This document shows, in pieces, positions 4,489 through 51,576 of a DNA stretch of 64,000 nucleotides. The stretch comes from an uncultured Candidatus Saccharibacteria bacterium. Lineage in GTDB: Bacteria; Patescibacteriota; Saccharimonadia; Saccharimonadales; UBA10212. A program made the position numbers and the translations under genes. The first letter of the stretch is position 1. Every line of letters begins with the position of its first letter. The notes below the pieces were generated by a model. The model had not been told where the DNA came from. It worked only from the letters and a program-made list of their open reading frames with translations, and ran no database searches. Location of the stretch: contig CAZETJ010000002.1 of assembly GCA_964514575.1 (NCBI GenBank), positions 1,391 through 65,390 of the forward strand. The letters run 5' to 3'.

Positions 4489-4830
4489 ATGGATTTTGAC
4501 GAGTATCAAAAAAAAGCCATTACGACTGATGTCTACGGTGGCAAGGGCGACATCCAATCAATCGCATTTTTAAATAAAGTTTTAGGCTTGGTCGGCGAGA
4601 CTGGCGAGGTGGCCGAGAAAGTCAAAAAGCTGCAGCGCAATCAGGCTGGTGAAATGAGTAAATCTGACAGGCAGGAGCTGCTCAAGGAGTTGGGCGATGT
4701 ACTTTGGTATTTGAGTGCATTAACTTTCTATCTCGGCGAATCGCTAGACAAGCTTGCTCAAAGCAACCTAAACAAACTTTTCGATCGTAAATCACGAGGC
4801 GTTATCAAATCCCAGGGCGACAACCGTTAA
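4489..4830 (+). CDS. MazG-like nucleotide pyrophosphohydrolase
   Basis: 113 aa. GLVGETGEVAEKVKK...ELGDVLWYL matches the EExxE/ExxD MazG helix motifs. Confidence 0.8.
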   Translation: MDFDEYQKKAITTDVYGGKGDIQSIAFLNKVLGLVGETGEVAEKVKKLQRNQAGEMSKSDRQELLKELGDVLWYLSALTFYLGESLDKLAQSNLNKLFDRKSRGVIKSQGDNR

Positions 4831-5581: not shown

Positions 5582-6268
5582 TCAAACGGTATGACGTGTC
5601 TCTTTGGTTGGAGAATTATCTAAAGATTGCCACAAGTACCAGCAGGCAACCGATTCGTAGGGATGCCACTTATTTTTATTAGCGATGGTGATGATCTGTT
5701 CAGGAGTCGGTAGCTTGCTTGTCCCGTTAGAAATTCCTTGACTAGTTAAGGAATTTTTTATGGGATAAAGTTTCTGGATGGCTTTGCGGATACCAAGATC
5801 GCCAACCGGCAAAACATCCAGCCGGCCGAGGCCGAACATCATAAACATGTGCGCGCTCCACTCGCCGATACCTTTGACGGCTGTCAATTGTTCTATTAAC
5901 TGGTCGTTAGGCATGGTGCTGATATGATCTAGGTCGAGTCGGCCGTCAATAATGTGCTGCGCCAAATCTTTCATGTAGCCGACTTTCGGCCAACTACAGC
6001 CGGCGTCGCGCAGTTTCTGACCGTCAATTCTGAGCAGCTGCTCAGGCGTGGGCATCTTGTCGTCAAACAGCGCCAAGACCCGGCGCCAAATGGTGCCGCC
6101 GGCTTTAGCCGACAACTGCTGGCCAACGATGGAACCGACCAGCTCGCCATAATAATCTTTGTGCGGTTTCAGGCGGCACGGTCCGCTGGATTTTATTACC
6201 GGCGCTAATTTTTTATCAACCTTAACTAAGTAAACTTCGGCGGCTCGCAGTTTTTGGGCAAATGTCAT
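5582..6268 (-). CDS. HhH-GPD DNA glycosylase (AlkA / 3-methyladenine glycosylase II-like)
   Basis: LTAVKGIGEWSAHMFMMFGLGRLDVLPVGDLGIRKA is the helix-hairpin-helix plus catalytic Asp region. Start trimmed to MTFAQKL (6268). Confidence 0.8.
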   Translation of the reverse strand: MTFAQKLRAAEVYLVKVDKKLAPVIKSSGPCRLKPHKDYYGELVGSIVGQQLSAKAGGTIWRRVLALFDDKMPTPEQLLRIDGQKLRDAGCSWPKVGYMKDLAQHIIDGRLDLDHISTMPNDQLIEQLTAVKGIGEWSAHMFMMFGLGRLDVLPVGDLGIRKAIQKLYPIKNSLTSQGISNGTSKLPTPEQIITIANKNKWHPYESVACWYLWQSLDNSPTKETRHTV

Positions 6269-6870: not shown

Positions 6871-7622
6871 TTGATATCAAATTCCAGGACCAAGGCTTTA
6901 TGGTCGGACACGAGCTCGTTTGAAGCGGTGAAGCTTTTGACTTCTATTTCTTTGCTAACAAAAATATAATCGCAAACCTCTATCTTCCGCGTCAGTTGGG
7001 TGCGCGTTGTCCTCAATTCGTACTTTATAGATAGATTCTCTAAGTGATTATTGATCTGCTCAAGAGATTTACTATCTGGCGTAAGGTTAAAATCACCAGT
7101 CAGAATAATTGGTCCACTGAGCCTCTTAATATATTCAGTGATTTGTTTCATCTGCCGCAGGGTACCAGCATCCCCGTTCTTATGTTCCGGGATGTGATGT
7201 CCGTGGTGGTTTAAAACATGCAGAGACTGCCCATTTAAAGACACCTGGACATGCTGAAGATTTCTGACATTATAATCATCGATATCAAAATCGAAGCCAC
7301 TTTTATGGGCTTTGTTGGTAAATATAGTTTCTTGTTTTTCGAAGGGTAGGGTTGAAATGATGGCATTCCCGAAATGAGCCTCCTTAGTCATAAATTTGAA
7401 AGAGAACATAGCCGAATGAAAAAGATAAGTTGGCTTTTGCCAGCAAGCCTGCAAGCCCTCTATTGACTTAAAAATTGCTCCGTTGCCATTGATACTAATC
7501 GCTTCTTGAAAGCAGGCAATGTCCGGTTGCTGATCGGAAAAAAAGAACATCAGTGGATTCTCTAGCCGGCCGCCATAGATATTTGCTTGAACTAGCTTCA
7601 CGCAAACCTTCCGCGTAGCCAC
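6867..7622 (-). CDS. Endonuclease/exonuclease/phosphatase (EEP) family protein
   Basis: CFQEA, LTGDFN and VSDHKALV motifs. Confidence 0.8.
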   Translation of the reverse strand: MATRKVCVKLVQANIYGGRLENPLMFFFSDQQPDIACFQEAISINGNGAIFKSIEGLQACWQKPTYLFHSAMFSFKFMTKEAHFGNAIISTLPFEKQETIFTNKAHKSGFDFDIDDYNVRNLQHVQVSLNGQSLHVLNHHGHHIPEHKNGDAGTLRQMKQITEYIKRLSGPIILTGDFNLTPDSKSLEQINNHLENLSIKYELRTTRTQLTRKIEVCDYIFVSKEIEVKSFTASNELVSDHKALVLEFDIN

Positions 7623-34165: not shown

Positions 34166-34804
34166 ATGAGATTATTTTTATCAAGCGAGAACCTGGGCGA
34201 ATACCCAGAAGCATTTATTGAGCTGGTCGGCGACAACAACAAGCTGGCCTTTATCGAAAATGCTAAAGACGACTGGACGCTTGATGATCGTACCGCTAAA
34301 CTCCAAGAGCACAAGCATCAGTTCAGACAGCTTGGCTTTGACGTTCATGAGCTAGACCTTAGAGATTTCTTTGGTAAAGCCGATAAGCTAGACAATTGGC
34401 TAAAAGATTTTGGTGGCGTGTTCGCTGCCGGTGGAAATTCATTTATACTACGTCGCGCCATGGCCCAAAGCGGTCTAGACAAGATCCTGATAAAACGGAC
34501 GAAAGATGACTCCGTAGCTTACGGCGGTTCAAGCGCTGGGAGCATAGTCGTTACGCCAAGCTTAAGGGGTAGCGAACATGGTGATTATCCTGATGTTGTG
34601 CCCAAAGGCTACGATAAAAAAATAATTTGGAAAGGGCTAAGCCTGGTCCCGTTTTATGTCGTGCCGCACTACAAGTCGAGTTGGTGGGGCGAGGAGGCTG
34701 ACATTATGGTCCGGAAACTCAAGGCCAAGGACTCACGCCATTACAAATTGCGAGACGGACAAGTCATAGTCGTTGAGGCTGGTAAAATCGAGTATCTAAA
34801 ATGA
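34166..34804 (+). CDS. Peptidase S51 (dipeptidase E-like)
   Basis: GGNSFILRRAM and GGSSAGSIV (Ser nucleophile context). Confidence 0.7.
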   Translation: MRLFLSSENLGEYPEAFIELVGDNNKLAFIENAKDDWTLDDRTAKLQEHKHQFRQLGFDVHELDLRDFFGKADKLDNWLKDFGGVFAAGGNSFILRRAMAQSGLDKILIKRTKDDSVAYGGSSAGSIVVTPSLRGSEHGDYPDVVPKGYDKKIIWKGLSLVPFYVVPHYKSSWWGEEADIMVRKLKAKDSRHYKLRDGQVIVVEAGKIEYLK

Positions 34805-34805
34805 G

Positions 34806-34874
34806 TCCCGTTAAAGCTAAGTATTTTTATAAAATCTGCCGGTTCGCTTGGCAGCGAGCCGGAGCTCTAACGGG
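34806..34874. mobile_element. MITE-like element, copy 1 (13-bp terminal inverted repeats, flanked by ATGAG/ATGAG)
   Basis: TCCCGTTAAAGCT ... AGCTCTAACGGG(A). Inner hairpin CTGCC/GGCAG. About 80% identical to 50887-50964. Confidence 0.6.
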
Positions 34875-35351
34875 ATGAGAATTATCGGCATCGATCCAGG
34901 CACGGGTATTCTGGGGTTTGGGATTATCGAGGCCGAAGGCGACAAATTCCACTTGGTGGATGGTGGAGTTATCCGAACGCCGGTTAAAGAAGACGATGCT
35001 GTGCGTCTGCAGACTATCTTCGAAGAACTGACCGATATCATTGCCGAGACTAAGCCCGAAGAAATGGCCGTCGAGAAATTGTTTTTTGCCCAAAATGTTA
35101 CTACCGCCATGACGGTCGCCCAGGCCCGCGGCGTAGTTTTGCTAGCAGCCAAGCAAGCCGGCCTAAAAATTTCGGAGTACACACCTCTCCAAATTAAGCA
35201 GGCGCTGACCGGCTACGGCCGGGCCGAAAAAAAGCAGGTCCAGGAGATGGTGCGGGTGATGTTGGGACTAAAAGAGATTCCAAAGCCAGACGATTGCGCC
35301 GATGCTCTGGCCGCTGCCATCTGTCATTCGCAGTCGGTTAAGGTAAAATAA
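34875..35351 (+). CDS. ruvC: Holliday junction resolvase RuvC
   Basis: MRIIGIDPGTGILGFGIIE ... EKLFFAQN ... DCADALAAAICH. Confidence 0.93.
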   Translation: MRIIGIDPGTGILGFGIIEAEGDKFHLVDGGVIRTPVKEDDAVRLQTIFEELTDIIAETKPEEMAVEKLFFAQNVTTAMTVAQARGVVLLAAKQAGLKISEYTPLQIKQALTGYGRAEKKQVQEMVRVMLGLKEIPKPDDCADALAAAICHSQSVKVK

Positions 35352-49409: not shown

Positions 49410-50426
49410 GTGGCAGACAAAACTAAAGACGCAGCCGCTCGGTCGAGCGGTAAAGTCCAAGCTCTTAAGCTGGCAGTTGATCAGATTGAAAAGCAGTTTG
49501 GCAAAGGTTCGATCATGCGGCTTGGTGAAGCTCATGCCGCTGACGTCGAAACAATTTCAACCGGCAGCCTTAGTCTCGACTTGGCTCTAGGCGGAGGAAT
49601 TCCTCGCGGCCGGGTTGTTGAAATCTACGGCCCAGAGAGCTCTGGCAAAACAACGGTTTGTTTGCACGCCGTGGCGGAGGTTCAGAAAAATGGCGGCACT
49701 GCGGCCTTTATTGACGCCGAGCATGCCCTAGATCCGGCTTACGCCAAGCGCCTGGGCGTTAATACTGATAGTCTGCTAATCTCTCAGCCAGATAGCGGCG
49801 AACAAGCTTTGGAAATTTTGGAAACCCTTGTACGCTCCAACGCCGTTGACATTGTCGTGATTGACTCGGTTGCTGCTCTAGTTCCCCAGGCCGAAATCGA
49901 GGGCGACATGGGCGATGCCCACATGGGCCTGCAAGCTCGGCTGATGAGCCAAGCTTTACGTAAACTAACCGGCATAATTTCCCGCACCAAGTGCACGGTA
50001 ATTTTTGTTAACCAGCTGCGTATGAAGATCGGTATCATGTTCGGTAACCCAGAGACCACGACTGGCGGCAACGCTCTAAAGTTCTATGCTTCAGTGCGTA
50101 TGGATATTCGCCGTCTCAGCCAGATCAAACAGGGCGATCAGGCCATTGGCAACCACTGCCGGGTCAAAGTCGTTAAGAACAAAATCGCGCCGCCTTTCCG
50201 CGAGGCCGAATTCGACATCATGTACAACGAGGGTATTAGCAAATCTGGCGATGTAATTGACTTGGCTGTGGCTAAGGGCGTGGTCGACAAGACCGGCGCT
50301 TGGTACGAATATAGCGGCGAAAAAATCGGCCAGGGCCGTGAAGCTACCAAGAAATTCCTAAAAGAAAATCCCAAAATTTTGGATAAAATCTCCAAAGAAA
50401 CTATAGTCGCCGCCAACAAGGAGTAG
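49410..50426 (+). CDS. recA: Recombinase RecA
   Basis: GTG start with an [18 protein letters not shown] and the loop L1/L2 regions. Confidence 0.98.
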
Positions 50427-50429
50427 ATA

Positions 50430-50885
50430 GTGACCGCAACAAACCATGCCATAACCGGCGCAGTGATCGCTGTTACTTTTAGTTCGCCGTGGTTGGCGCT
50501 GCCGGCGGCTTTGCTGTCACATTTTGTACTAGACGCTGTTCCGCATTGGGACTATCAACTGAAGCTTGCCGCGAAGCGAGCCGTAATGGCGGGTGATCTT
50601 TTACTAGCGGCCATAATTATTTTGGCGGTCGCTTTCTTTGCCGGTACGTTCAACGCGCCGGTTTGGGTGATTGTAGCCTGCGGCGCGCTGGCTGTGGTGC
50701 CCGATGCTATGTGGCTGCCGCATATCTTACGCGGCCGGCCAATTCCCATGGGTGACGACAGGCCGCTTTACTACGCTAGGCGATTTCACCGCTGGATTCA
50801 GTGGAGCGAGACAAAGCGATTGGGTATTTTAACTGAGTCTGTTTGGCTGGCGGCCATGGTTATAATTCTGTTTCAGTCGAAATGA
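50430..50885 (+). CDS. Membrane protein resembling YdjM/DUF457 metal-dependent hydrolases
   Basis: MTATNHAITGAVIA...LSHFVLDAVPHWDY and four TM segments. Confidence 0.5.
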   Translation: MTATNHAITGAVIAVTFSSPWLALPAALLSHFVLDAVPHWDYQLKLAAKRAVMAGDLLLAAIIILAVAFFAGTFNAPVWVIVACGALAVVPDAMWLPHILRGRPIPMGDDRPLYYARRFHRWIQWSETKRLGILTESVWLAAMVIILFQSK

Positions 50886-50886
50886 A

Positions 50887-50964
50887 TCCCGTTAGAGCTA
50901 AGTATTTTATCAAAGATAAAATCTGCCGCATATCTAGCCGGCAGTTATGCGGAGCTCTAACGGG
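50887..50964. mobile_element. MITE-like element, copy 2 (perfect 13-bp terminal inverted repeats, flanked by ATGAA/ATGAA)
   Basis: TCCCGTTAGAGCT ... AGCTCTAACGGG(A). Inner hairpin CTGCCG/CGGCAG. Confidence 0.6.
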
Positions 50965-51561
50965 ATGAAAATTACGGCCCTCAAGCAGCAGGTTAAAAAT
51001 CCGGGACGGGTTAGTATTTTTGTCAATGAGAAATACAGTTTTTCACTGACCATTAACCAGGTGGCTGACTACGGGGTCAAAAAAGATCTAGAAATATCCG
51101 AGGCCGAGCTTAAGAACTTCAAAAAAATGTCCGAAGACGGCAAGCTGGCAGCGCGGGCTCTCGAGTGGGTGCTCAACCGGCCGCATTCAGTCCGTGAGTT
51201 CAAGGATTACATGTACCGCAAAAAGGCCGAGCCGGAACTGGCCGGAAAGTTGATCGAGGAGTTCGGGGCAAAGGGTTACCTAAACGACGAAGCCTACGGC
51301 CGATGGTTGATCGAGCTAAGGGCTAGGACCGGCAAAAGTAACCGGGCGATGAGCGCCGAGCTTTTTGCCAAAGGATTGGATAGGGAAGTCATTGGTCAGA
51401 TTCTAGAAGAGCAGGAGGCCAGCGAGGCGGAACGACTACGGGTACTAGTAGCCAAGAAACGACCACTCTCCCGATATAAAAATGATGACCCAAAGCTTAT
51501 AAAATACTTAACTAGTCAAGGATTCTCTTACGACCTAGTTAAGCAAGAGTTAAATACTTAA
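50965..51561 (+). CDS. recX: RecA regulator RecX
   Basis: Three-repeat helical protein following recA. Start trimmed to MKITALKQQ. Confidence 0.8.
   Translation: MKITALKQQVKNPGRVSIFVNEKYSFSLTINQVADYGVKKDLEISEAELKNFKKMSEDGKLAARALEWVLNRPHSVREFKDYMYRKKAEPELAGKLIEEFGAKGYLNDEAYGRWLIELRARTGKSNRAMSAELFAKGLDREVIGQILEEQEASEAERLRVLVAKKRPLSRYKNDDPKLIKYLTSQGFSYDLVKQELNT
51502..51524. repeat. Motif family copy 5, AAATACTTAACTAGTCAAGGATT (inside recX)
   Basis: Read directly. Confidence 0.8.
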
Positions 51562-51576
51562 CTAGTTAAGTATTTA
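51551..51576. repeat. Perfect 26-bp palindrome TAAATACTTAACTAGTTAAGTATTTA (motif family copy 6)
   Basis: Read directly. Contains the recX stop codon. Lies between convergent genes. Confidence 0.9.

What the first reader, a model, noticed from the sequence alone, without database searches (positions are those of the whole stretch)
50882..50969. Second copy of the MITE-like element, between a YdjM-like gene and recX
The 78-nt element at 50887-50964 has perfect 13-bp inverted repeats TCCCGTTAGAGCT / AGCTCTAACGGGA and an inner hairpin CTGCCG...CGGCAG with a different loop from copy 1.

Here the flanking direct repeat is ATGAA (50882-86 and 50965-69). The fifth flank nucleotide thus changes together on both sides (G/G in copy 1, A/A here), as expected for a target-site duplication. 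Excision restores ...TCGAAATGAAAATT..., again an ATGA overlap.

The competing explanation is that both copies precede recombination genes (ruvC, recX). The element could instead be a shared cis-regulatory hairpin that sequesters the SD and start codon. The outer stem ends on the A of the ATG.
Basis: partly seen in the sequence, partly recalled or inferred. Interest (0 to 1): 0.7.

Follow-up and report, generated by a model that had tools for sequence, protein, structure and literature searches.

The report
Start-codon-inserting MITE in Saccharibacteria
The 79-base hairpin in front of recX is a real, recently inserted copy of a small mobile DNA element that in nearly every known copy sits exactly on a gene's start codon and rebuilds that start codon, so it is not a switch specific to recombination genes.

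Summary
Window 50887-50965 has perfect 13-bp terminal inverted repeats and matching flanks. Relatives whose RecX is 93%, 92% and 73% identical lack exactly 83 bp here and show the predicted ...ATGAAAAT... stop/start overlap.

Scans found 38 distinct copies in Saccharibacteria genomes and metagenomes, plus short variants in phage contigs. 33 of 38 have identical 4-nt flanks (TGRR). The duplication is probably 4 bp, with the element's last A rebuilding ATG.

36 of 38 copies abut the start codon of a same-strand ORF, always with the GGAG-bearing end next to the gene. The downstream genes are unrelated (RuvC, RecX, MsrA, LigA, MerR, HIT and others), which refutes the recombination-regulon reading.

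New result: the ORF from the old (left) start codon stays open through the element in 34 of 36 copies. It stops at a TAA 7 nt before the new ATG, or at a TGA overlapping it. For copies with unrelated interiors, P = 2.5e-4. The insert is therefore a translated-through mini-cistron that probably keeps translational coupling.

No transposase, Rfam family or publication was found. I class it as a new MITE family with an unusual start-codon niche.

The parts
50430..50885 (+). Upstream 151-aa membrane-like ORF (recA-X-recX operon). Its stop TGA (50883-50885) lies inside the left target-site copy.
   Evidence: called gene in identical contigs. No Pfam or NCBIfam family.
50882..50886 (+). Ancestral recX start codon ATG (50882-84) plus AA. 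The left copy of the target-site duplication is TGAA, 50883-50886.
   Evidence: Empty sites read ...GAGATGAAAAT....
50887..50899 (+). Left terminal inverted repeat TCCCGTTAGAGCT. It contains a TAG that stops upstream genes in one frame.
50904..50922 (+). A/T hairpin ATTTTATC-AAA-GATAAAAT, nearly invariant in the main subfamily. Its loop varies.
   Evidence: 95% of cells paired, no covariation.
50923..50952 (+). Variable G+C hairpin region with two mutually exclusive helices. The second is CCGCATA/TATGCGG (50926-32 with 50946-52).
   Evidence: compensatory changes; no strand asymmetry of wobble pairs.
50951..50954 (+). Shine-Dalgarno-like GGAG, 10 nt upstream of the regenerated ATG. It is present at this end of almost all copies (phage variants have AAGGAGG).
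   Evidence: Its function is inferred.
50953..50965 (+). Right terminal inverted repeat AGCTCTAACGGGA. It contains a TAA, and its last A is the A of the present recX start codon.
50966..50969 (+). Right copy of the target-site duplication, TGAA. The TG completes the new ATG, and TGA (50966-68) stops the mini-ORF.
50882..50968 (+). Mini-ORF of 28 codons (MNPVRAKYFIKDKICRISSRQLCGALTG*). It runs from the ancestral ATG through the whole element to the TGA that overlaps the recX ATG.
   Evidence: It is open in 34 of 36 copies.
50965..51561 (+). recX (198 aa), starting at the regenerated ATG. The mechanical ORF from ATG 50947 (204 aa) starts inside the element and is an artefact.
34802..34879 (+). 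Copy 1 of the same family. The element is 34806-34875 (70 nt), the duplication is TGAG (34802-05 and 34876-79), and it lies between a Peptidase_S51 gene and ruvC (ATG 34875). Its mini-ORF is 34801-34878.

Best explanation
This is a non-autonomous transposable element (a MITE) of a previously undescribed family. The family is found in Candidatus Saccharibacteria and in some phage contigs.

Shown:
- It inserted into the former ATGA stop/start overlap between the 151-aa gene and recX, duplicating TGAA.
- The left copy keeps the upstream gene's TGA stop and the old recX ATG.
- The element's last base plus the right TG makes a new recX ATG, preceded at 10 nt by an element-borne GGAG.
- The family shows the same geometry almost everywhere, and its spread is independent of gene function.
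- The old ATG opens a 28-codon mini-ORF that runs through the element and ends at the TGA overlapping the new ATG. This frame is kept open across the family.

Inferred:
- In the mRNA, the 14-bp outer stem and the inner hairpin sequester the GGAG and the AU of the new AUG.
- Ribosomes finishing the upstream gene, or starting at the old ATG, translate the mini-ORF and melt the stem. They terminate next to the new AUG and re-initiate there.
- recX therefore stays translationally coupled, and the insertion is nearly invisible to the host.
- Copies at start codons also persist because only a precise deletion can remove them without destroying the gene's start.

The enzyme that moves the element is unknown. 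A DDE-type transposase acting in trans is the default inference from inverted repeats plus a short duplication.
For: - Perfect inverted repeats and matching flanks.
- Empty orthologous sites differ by exactly 83 bp.
- 38 distinct copies at non-homologous sites, from at least a dozen genomes assembled from metagenomes plus metagenome contigs. 33 of 38 have identical 4-nt flanks.
- Identical elements sit at unrelated sites, for example L007 and L026.
- Copies with unrelated interiors keep the same termini.
- 36 of 38 abut a start codon, always in the GGAG-proximal orientation. A passive filter estimated from the window would give about 25%.
- The left flank often carries its own Shine-Dalgarno-like sequence.
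- The mini-ORF is open in 34 of 36 copies. Among copies with unrelated interiors, 9 of 11 are open against 3.2 expected, P = 2.5e-4.
- All 19 hairpin-2 types in the main subfamily keep it open. The product of the chance probabilities is about 9e-4.
- The fold sequesters GGAG and AU.
- No Rfam family matches.
Against: - No autonomous element or transposase was found in about 340 kb of held Saccharibacteria DNA or in the phage loci.
- The target TGRR is not palindromic, and orientation relative to it is fixed at start codons. That needs either selection or an asymmetric enzyme.
- The 92-95% association with start codons exceeds what passive purging of coding insertions predicts.
- Two copies (L038a, L044) lack flanking repeats.
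- Element length is oddly constrained: 62-81 nt for most chromosomal copies.
- Translation of the mini-ORF, coupling, and use of the GGAG have no expression data behind them.
- Hairpin-2 mismatches show no strand bias (G.T 11 against A.C 9), so that hairpin may matter at the DNA level rather than in mRNA.
Confidence: 0.75

Rival explanations
1. The element is a domesticated RNA operator. In this view it is mobile in origin, but its extreme conservation and start-codon position exist because the stem UCCCGUUAGA/UCUAACGGGA is bound or cut by a host or phage protein. Candidates are a translational repressor like the MS2 coat or T4 RegA, or RNase III. That protein would set translation of many genes.
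For: - The terminal 10-13 nt are invariant in copies whose interiors are unrelated, and also in phage structural operons.
- The A and U of the AUG lie in the stem.
- The start-codon association is stronger than passive filtering predicts.
- Phage variants carry a second inner arm that could compete for the left arm.
Against: - Conserved termini with free interiors is exactly what a transposase-recognised MITE shows.
- The downstream genes have no common theme.
- Close relatives do without the element at recX.
- No candidate binding protein was identified.
- Wobble pairs in hairpin 2 show no strand bias.
Confidence: 0.15
2. The element is moved as single-stranded DNA by an HUH/Y1 enzyme, in the style of IS200/IS605 palindrome-associated transposable elements or REP/RAYT elements. 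Alternatively it moves as a mini-circle via a site-specific recombinase. Either would explain the fixed orientation relative to an asymmetric target.
For: - The target (A)TGRR is asymmetric and orientation is fixed.
- Hairpins are maintained by compensatory change with no strand bias, as expected for DNA hairpins.
- Joining the ends would create 13-bp inverted arms around a 4-bp spacer, resembling a recombinase core site (from the sequence).
Against: - IS200/IS605-type elements have neither terminal inverted repeats nor target duplications. Here both are present, and the flank pairs co-vary (TGAA, TGAG, TGGA, TGGG).
- Empty sites carry no arm-like sequence for a recombinase.
- The one copy not at a start codon (L008b) appears to lie in the opposite orientation relative to its TGGA flank. 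That suggests orientation is set by selection.
Confidence: 0.08
3. The element is a cis-regulatory hairpin shared by recombination or SOS genes (ruvC, recX), sequestering the Shine-Dalgarno sequence and start codon in response to DNA damage.
For: Both window copies precede recombination genes. The stem covers the AU of the AUG.
Against: - The other 36 copies precede unrelated genes.
- recX in close relatives lacks the element.
Confidence: 0.02

Closest known systems
Bacterial MITEs in general (for example Correia elements of Neisseria, RUP of pneumococcus, Nezha of cyanobacteria)
   Same: Short, non-coding, with terminal inverted repeats and a flanking target duplication. Many copies, filled and empty orthologous sites, stable stem-loop when transcribed, often co-transcribed with neighbouring genes (review PMC3184786).
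   Different: The termini (TCCCGTTAGAGCT) and target (TGRR, 4 bp) are different. The element is much shorter (45-106 nt). It is almost exclusively on start codons in one orientation, and its last base rebuilds the ATG. No parent insertion sequence is known.
Mycobacterial interspersed repetitive units (MIRUs; Supply et al. 1997, as summarised in PMC3184786)
   Same: 40-100 bp units inside polycistronic operons. They have tetranucleotide direct repeats, filled and empty sites, G+C-rich internal inverted repeats, and small ORFs whose ends overlap the adjacent genes. This is the closest functional analogue of the mini-cistron found here.
   Different: MIRUs are often tandemly repeated and have only imperfect terminal repeats. 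They occur in Actinobacteria, and no sequence relation is apparent. Regeneration of the start codon by the element's terminal base, and the strict start-codon position, are not described for them in the review read here.
Neisseria REP2 and similar Borrelia plasmid repeats
   Same: [quoted passage not shown]
   Different: REP2 has no terminal inverted repeats and carries a promoter. Here inverted repeats and a duplication are present, no promoter-like site was detected, and only the A of the ATG is element-borne.
Rickettsia palindromic elements and other repeats translated as part of ORFs
   Same: Palindromic mobile repeats that are tolerated because they remain translatable (PMC3184786).
   Different: Those are in-frame additions to proteins. 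Here in-frame fusion to the downstream gene is avoided among copies with a left start codon (only L004 is in frame, and it has an internal stop). The element is a separate mini-cistron.

Membership tests
MITE (non-autonomous DNA transposon) | Terminal inverted repeats | tested here: met
   13-14 bp perfect repeats. The termini are conserved in 38 copies.
MITE (non-autonomous DNA transposon) | Flanking target-site duplication that differs between copies but matches within a copy | tested here: met
   33 of 38 copies have identical 4-nt flanks: TGAA, TGAG, TGGA, TGGG, TTGA.
MITE (non-autonomous DNA transposon) | Filled and empty orthologous sites differing by the element plus one duplication copy | tested here: met
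   83-bp difference at recX against L019-24 and L051.
MITE (non-autonomous DNA transposon) | Multiple copies at non-homologous loci, with no transposase coding capacity | tested here: met
   38 copies of 45-106 nt in front of unrelated genes.
MITE (non-autonomous DNA transposon) | Cognate autonomous insertion sequence with matching termini | tested here: inconclusive
   No distant arm pairs or transposase in about 340 kb of held loci or in the phage loci. The whole-collection scans could only use gaps of up to 60-70 nt.
IS200/IS605-derived palindrome-associated transposable element, or REP element | No terminal inverted repeats and no target duplication; insertion 3' of a fixed tetra- or pentanucleotide | tested here: not met
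   Inverted repeats are present, and both flanks co-vary between copies.
Integron attC site | RYYYAAC at the 5' end and GTTRRRY at the 3' end of the top strand, 3' of a cassette ORF | tested here: not met
   The order is reversed here (GTTAGAG ... CTCTAAC). The element is 5' of housekeeping genes and not in cassette arrays. The attC definition comes from established knowledge.
Known structured RNA families (Rfam 15) | Match to a covariance model at the gathering score | tested here: not met
   Only tRNAs in the window. The best local hit is Ysr100, 14 bits, E = 3.1.
MIRU-like operon mini-cistron | Small ORF in the repeat whose start and stop overlap or abut those of the neighbouring genes | tested here: met
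   The mini-ORF 50882-50968 shares ATGA with both neighbours. 34 of 36 copies behave the same way. This is a functional resemblance only. No sequence relation was tested, and the tandem repetition typical of MIRUs is absent.
SOS / recombination regulon leader | Restricted to DNA-repair genes | tested here: not met
   The downstream genes are functionally diverse.

The most novel reading that the evidence does not exclude
The element may be more than a tolerated parasite. In this reading it is a start-codon-homing, portable translation-initiation cassette shared between CPR bacteria and their phages. It would be moved by an unknown enzyme that recognises (A)TGRR at translation starts, or would be retained by selection. 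Its conserved stem and obligatory translated mini-cistron would impose strict translational coupling, or protein-mediated control, on whatever gene it lands in front of.
Probability: 0.2. Interest if true: 0.8.

Novelty: new variant of a known kind. Interest (0 to 1): 0.58.

Why it matters
- It shows recent DNA transposition in the very small, gene-dense genomes of Saccharibacteria, and a link to phage genomes.
- It illustrates an insertion strategy that costs the host almost nothing. The duplication preserves the upstream stop. The element's last base and its GGAG rebuild the downstream start. A translated-through mini-ORF probably preserves coupling.
- Start-codon specificity at this level (36 of 38) is unusual for a MITE. 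It raises a testable question about how a transposon, or selection, finds translation starts.
- It causes gene-start mis-calls. For example, the mechanical ORFs for recX (204 aa) and ruvC (167 aa) start inside the element.
- The presence/absence of copies could serve as strain markers.

Tried and rejected
1. Rfam, at gathering thresholds on the window and at E <= 10 on the locus: nothing relevant.
2. Promoter and terminator consensus scan: no site in the element. A minus-strand terminator-like arrangement (G+C hairpin followed by ATTTTAT) is visible by eye but was not called.
3. Variable hairpin 2 as a target guide (bridge-RNA-like): the longest matches to a copy's own flanks (4.8 and 5.0 nt) are no better than to other copies' flanks (4.6 and 4.8 nt). 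Rejected.
4. Strand-specific RNA selection on hairpin 2: G.T 11 against A.C 9, so no asymmetry.
5. Search for an autonomous element: arm searches with up to 3 mismatches and gaps up to 200 nt over 338 kb found only two extra hits. One is a 47-nt short variant and the other a probable chance hit. Pfam on the phage ORFs gave portal, capsid and adaptor proteins, and no transposase.
6. Integron attC, recombinase core site and T4-gene-60-type bypass were considered from memory and set aside, for the reasons given in the membership table and the full report.
7. Empty site for copy 1 (ruvC): all 9 shown places, representing 21 contigs that encode the identical RuvC, are filled. More distant RuvC orthologues were not searched.
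8. Literature: no paper combines Saccharibacteria with MITEs in a relevant way. The arm sequence occurs only in unrelated primer lists and similar contexts.
9. 'YdjM-like' label for the upstream gene: no profile support.

Full report

Yes. The sequence at 50882-50969 reads ATGAA|TCCCGTTAGAGCT...AGCTCTAACGGGA|TGAA.
- The repeat finder reports 14-nt perfect arms, 50886-50899 and 50953-50966.
- The exact 13-mer occurs three times in the window, and once more with one mismatch at copy 1, 34806-34875.
- The RNA fold is -38.6 kcal/mol (z = -7.05). It consists of the outer stem, an A/U hairpin and a G+C hairpin. Copy 1 folds the same way (-34.3 kcal/mol, z = -4.98), and the minus strands fold almost as well.
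- The upstream 151-aa ORF stops at TGA 50883-85. recX (198 aa; Pfam RecX_N and NCBIfam RecX) starts at ATG 50965, whose A is the last base of the right arm.
- 'YdjM-like' for the upstream ORF has no profile support.
- Rfam gives nothing.

**2. Is it an insertion?**

Contigs encoding RecX 100% or 99% identical to the window's carry the element (L013-18, L052). Relatives with RecX 93% (L051), 92% (L019-21) and 73% (L022-24) identical keep the same recA / 151-aa gene / recX order. In those relatives the 151-aa gene and recX overlap by ATGA.

Aligned, the window has exactly 83 extra bases. The empty sites read ...GCTGAGATGAAAATAACC..., and the window reads ...GTCGAAATGAA[79 nt]TGAAAATTACG....

**3. 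The family.**

- A two-arm pattern scan of one genome per species found 12 loci. Eleven record titles name Saccharibacteria or Saccharimonadales; the twelfth is titled only 'uncultured bacterium'.
- A metagenome scan found 22 more loci.
- With by-catch copies whose arms have diverged, there are 38 distinct copies.
- The terminal TCCCGTTAGA / TCTAACGGGA is constant.
- The interior is either the 'main subfamily' (AAGTATTTTATCAAAGATAAAATCTGCC, a variable hairpin, then GGAGCT) or entirely unrelated sequence. Most copies are 62-81 nt and two are 103-106 nt.
- Short variants of 43-61 nt, with a second inner arm and an AAGGAGG, occur in IMG/VR phage contigs. They sit in front of portal, adaptor and other genes.
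- Identical elements occur at unrelated sites, for example L007 and L026. Several hairpin types coexist in one genome. Several sublineages have therefore transposed.

**4. Target and duplication.**

In 33 of 38 copies the four bases left of the element equal the four bases right of it: TGAA, TGAG, TGGA, TGGG, and once TTGA. The reconstructed target shows conservation only at (A)TGRR.

The base before the left repeat is A in 31 of 36 start-codon copies. It is G or T in three copies where the other four bases still match. In L030 the terminal pair of the element itself changes from T..A to C..G. I therefore favour a 4-bp duplication, with the T and A belonging to the element.

**5. Position.**

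In 36 of 38 copies the right end abuts the start codon of a long same-strand ORF. The end that carries GG(AG) before the arm always faces the gene. Pfam places the downstream genes in unrelated families: RuvC, HIT, MerR, HAD, NTP_transferase, NAD-ligase, FAD_binding_4 and MsrA. Others include CysS-like, rpmJ-like and ABC-transporter-like genes.

The two exceptions are informative.
- L008b sits on an internal ATGGA three codons before the stop of a 211-aa gene and replaces its C-terminus.
- L030 is intergenic.

In the window there are 393 ATGRR sites. About 16 are at crude gene starts and 47 are intergenic. If coding insertions were simply purged, only about a quarter of surviving copies should be on start codons. 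Something more is at work: finer targeting, selection for the GGAG-proximal orientation, or preferential retention. Retention is plausible because a copy on a start codon can be lost only by precise deletion.

**6. The mini-cistron (new).**

The ORF that begins at the left, ancestral NTG stays open through the whole element in 34 of 36 copies.
- It ends at the TAA inside the right arm, 7 nt before the new ATG, in 22 copies.
- It ends at the TGA of the ATGA that overlaps the new ATG in 12 copies, including both window copies.

Among the 36 copies with a left start codon, the in-frame case occurs once (L004), and there an internal TAG intervenes.

For the 11 copies with unrelated interiors, 9 are open against 3.2 expected from interior shuffles (P = 2.5e-4). 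All 19 distinct hairpin-2 types of the main subfamily keep the frame open, and the product of the chance probabilities is about 9e-4. The peptides are unrelated outside the arm-encoded ends (M-x-PVRA ... EL* or GALTG*). It is therefore the act of translation that appears to be selected, not the peptide. Many left flanks still carry their own Shine-Dalgarno-like purine run.

**7. Structure.**

In the 25-copy alignment A1:
- The outer stem is 99.7% paired, with two compensated pairs.
- The helix at columns 46-55/63-73 (CCGCATA/TATGCGG in copy 2) has 6 of 10 pairs with changes on both sides and 94% of cells paired. Controls with the partner slid by 1-3 columns fall to 33-46%.

The two helices are mutually exclusive. 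G.T and A.C mismatches are equally frequent (11 against 9). The constraint is therefore not demonstrably on the plus-strand RNA. It could be a DNA-level hairpin important for mobility, or palindrome homogenisation.

**8. Mechanism proposed.**

*Shown:* the insertion event, the duplication, regeneration of the ATG by the terminal A, retention of the upstream stop, and the open mini-ORF ending next to the new start.

*Inferred:*
- The stem sequesters the GGAG and the AU of the AUG.
- De novo initiation at recX is therefore poor.
- Translation arriving from the upstream gene or the old ATG melts the stem, terminates beside the new AUG and re-initiates.
- The element's GGAG helps this.
- A trans-acting transposase of unknown family moves the element.

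No autonomous partner was found.

**9. Comparison with known systems.**

It meets every testable MITE criterion except a known parent insertion sequence.
- In function it is closest to mycobacterial MIRUs. These are operon-internal, have tetranucleotide direct repeats, and carry small ORFs overlapping the neighbouring genes.
[quoted passage not shown] Both are as summarised in PMC3184786.
- It is not an attC site, a REP or IS200/IS605-derived element, or a known RNA family.
- No publication on it was found.

**10. Verdict.**

The recombination-regulator alternative is refuted. The family is a new MITE variant with an unusual, near-exclusive start-codon niche and a translated-through design.

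Interest is moderate to high for mobile-DNA and CPR specialists. The open questions are the mobilising enzyme and the reason for the start-codon specificity.

Noticed in passing
window 112, 7751, 12876, 36910, 51506, 51556, 54963, 63719 (16 nt each): A separate 16-bp palindrome, ACTTAACNNGTTAAGT, occurs 8 times against 0.19 expected. One copy, extended to TAAATACTTAACTAGTTAAGTATTTA at 51551-51576, straddles the recX stop codon. Its half-site AGTTAAGTATTTA resembles the MITE's AGCTAAGTATTTTA. It could be an operator, a bidirectional terminator or another repeat family.
   Followed up: partly
window 5722-5768: A 47-nt hairpin, TCCCGTTAGAAATTCCTTGACT/AGTTAAGGAATTTTTTATGGGA, begins with the MITE's terminal 10-mer and folds well (z = -5.7). 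It may be a short or decayed relative. A similar 47-nt form is in L002 at 4744-4790.
   Followed up: partly
L048 (4733-4777, 9058-9117), L049 3739-3799, L063 10174-10216, L064 2708-2759, L065 376-418: Phage contigs with portal, capsid and adaptor genes carry 43-61-nt variants that have the same termini, an inner extra arm and an AAGGAGG. They sit on start codons, mostly with ATGAA on both sides. L048 also has further CCCGTTAGA-type motifs near 7000-7050.
   Followed up: partly
L008 7057-7134: One copy lies inside the 3' end of a 211-aa gene, at an internal ATGGA three codons before the original stop. It gives the protein a new C-terminus (...KPMDPVRDPVK*). It appears to lie in the opposite orientation relative to its flank.
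   Followed up: partly
L032 4017-4093, 6640-6715, 10659-10762: Three copies with three different interiors lie within 7 kb of one metagenome contig, each on a start codon. One is a 104-106-nt long form.
   Followed up: no
window 49410-51561 (recA, 151-aa ORF, recX): A 151-aa membrane-like ORF with no Pfam or NCBIfam family is conserved between recA and recX, with overlapping stop and start codons, in all relatives examined. It is an uncharacterised member of the recA-recX operon in these bacteria.
   Followed up: partly
window 50947-51561 and 34848-35351: Mechanical ORF calling extends recX (204 aa from ATG 50947) and ruvC (167 aa from TTG 34848) back into the element. Such elements will cause start-site mis-annotation.
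   Followed up: yes
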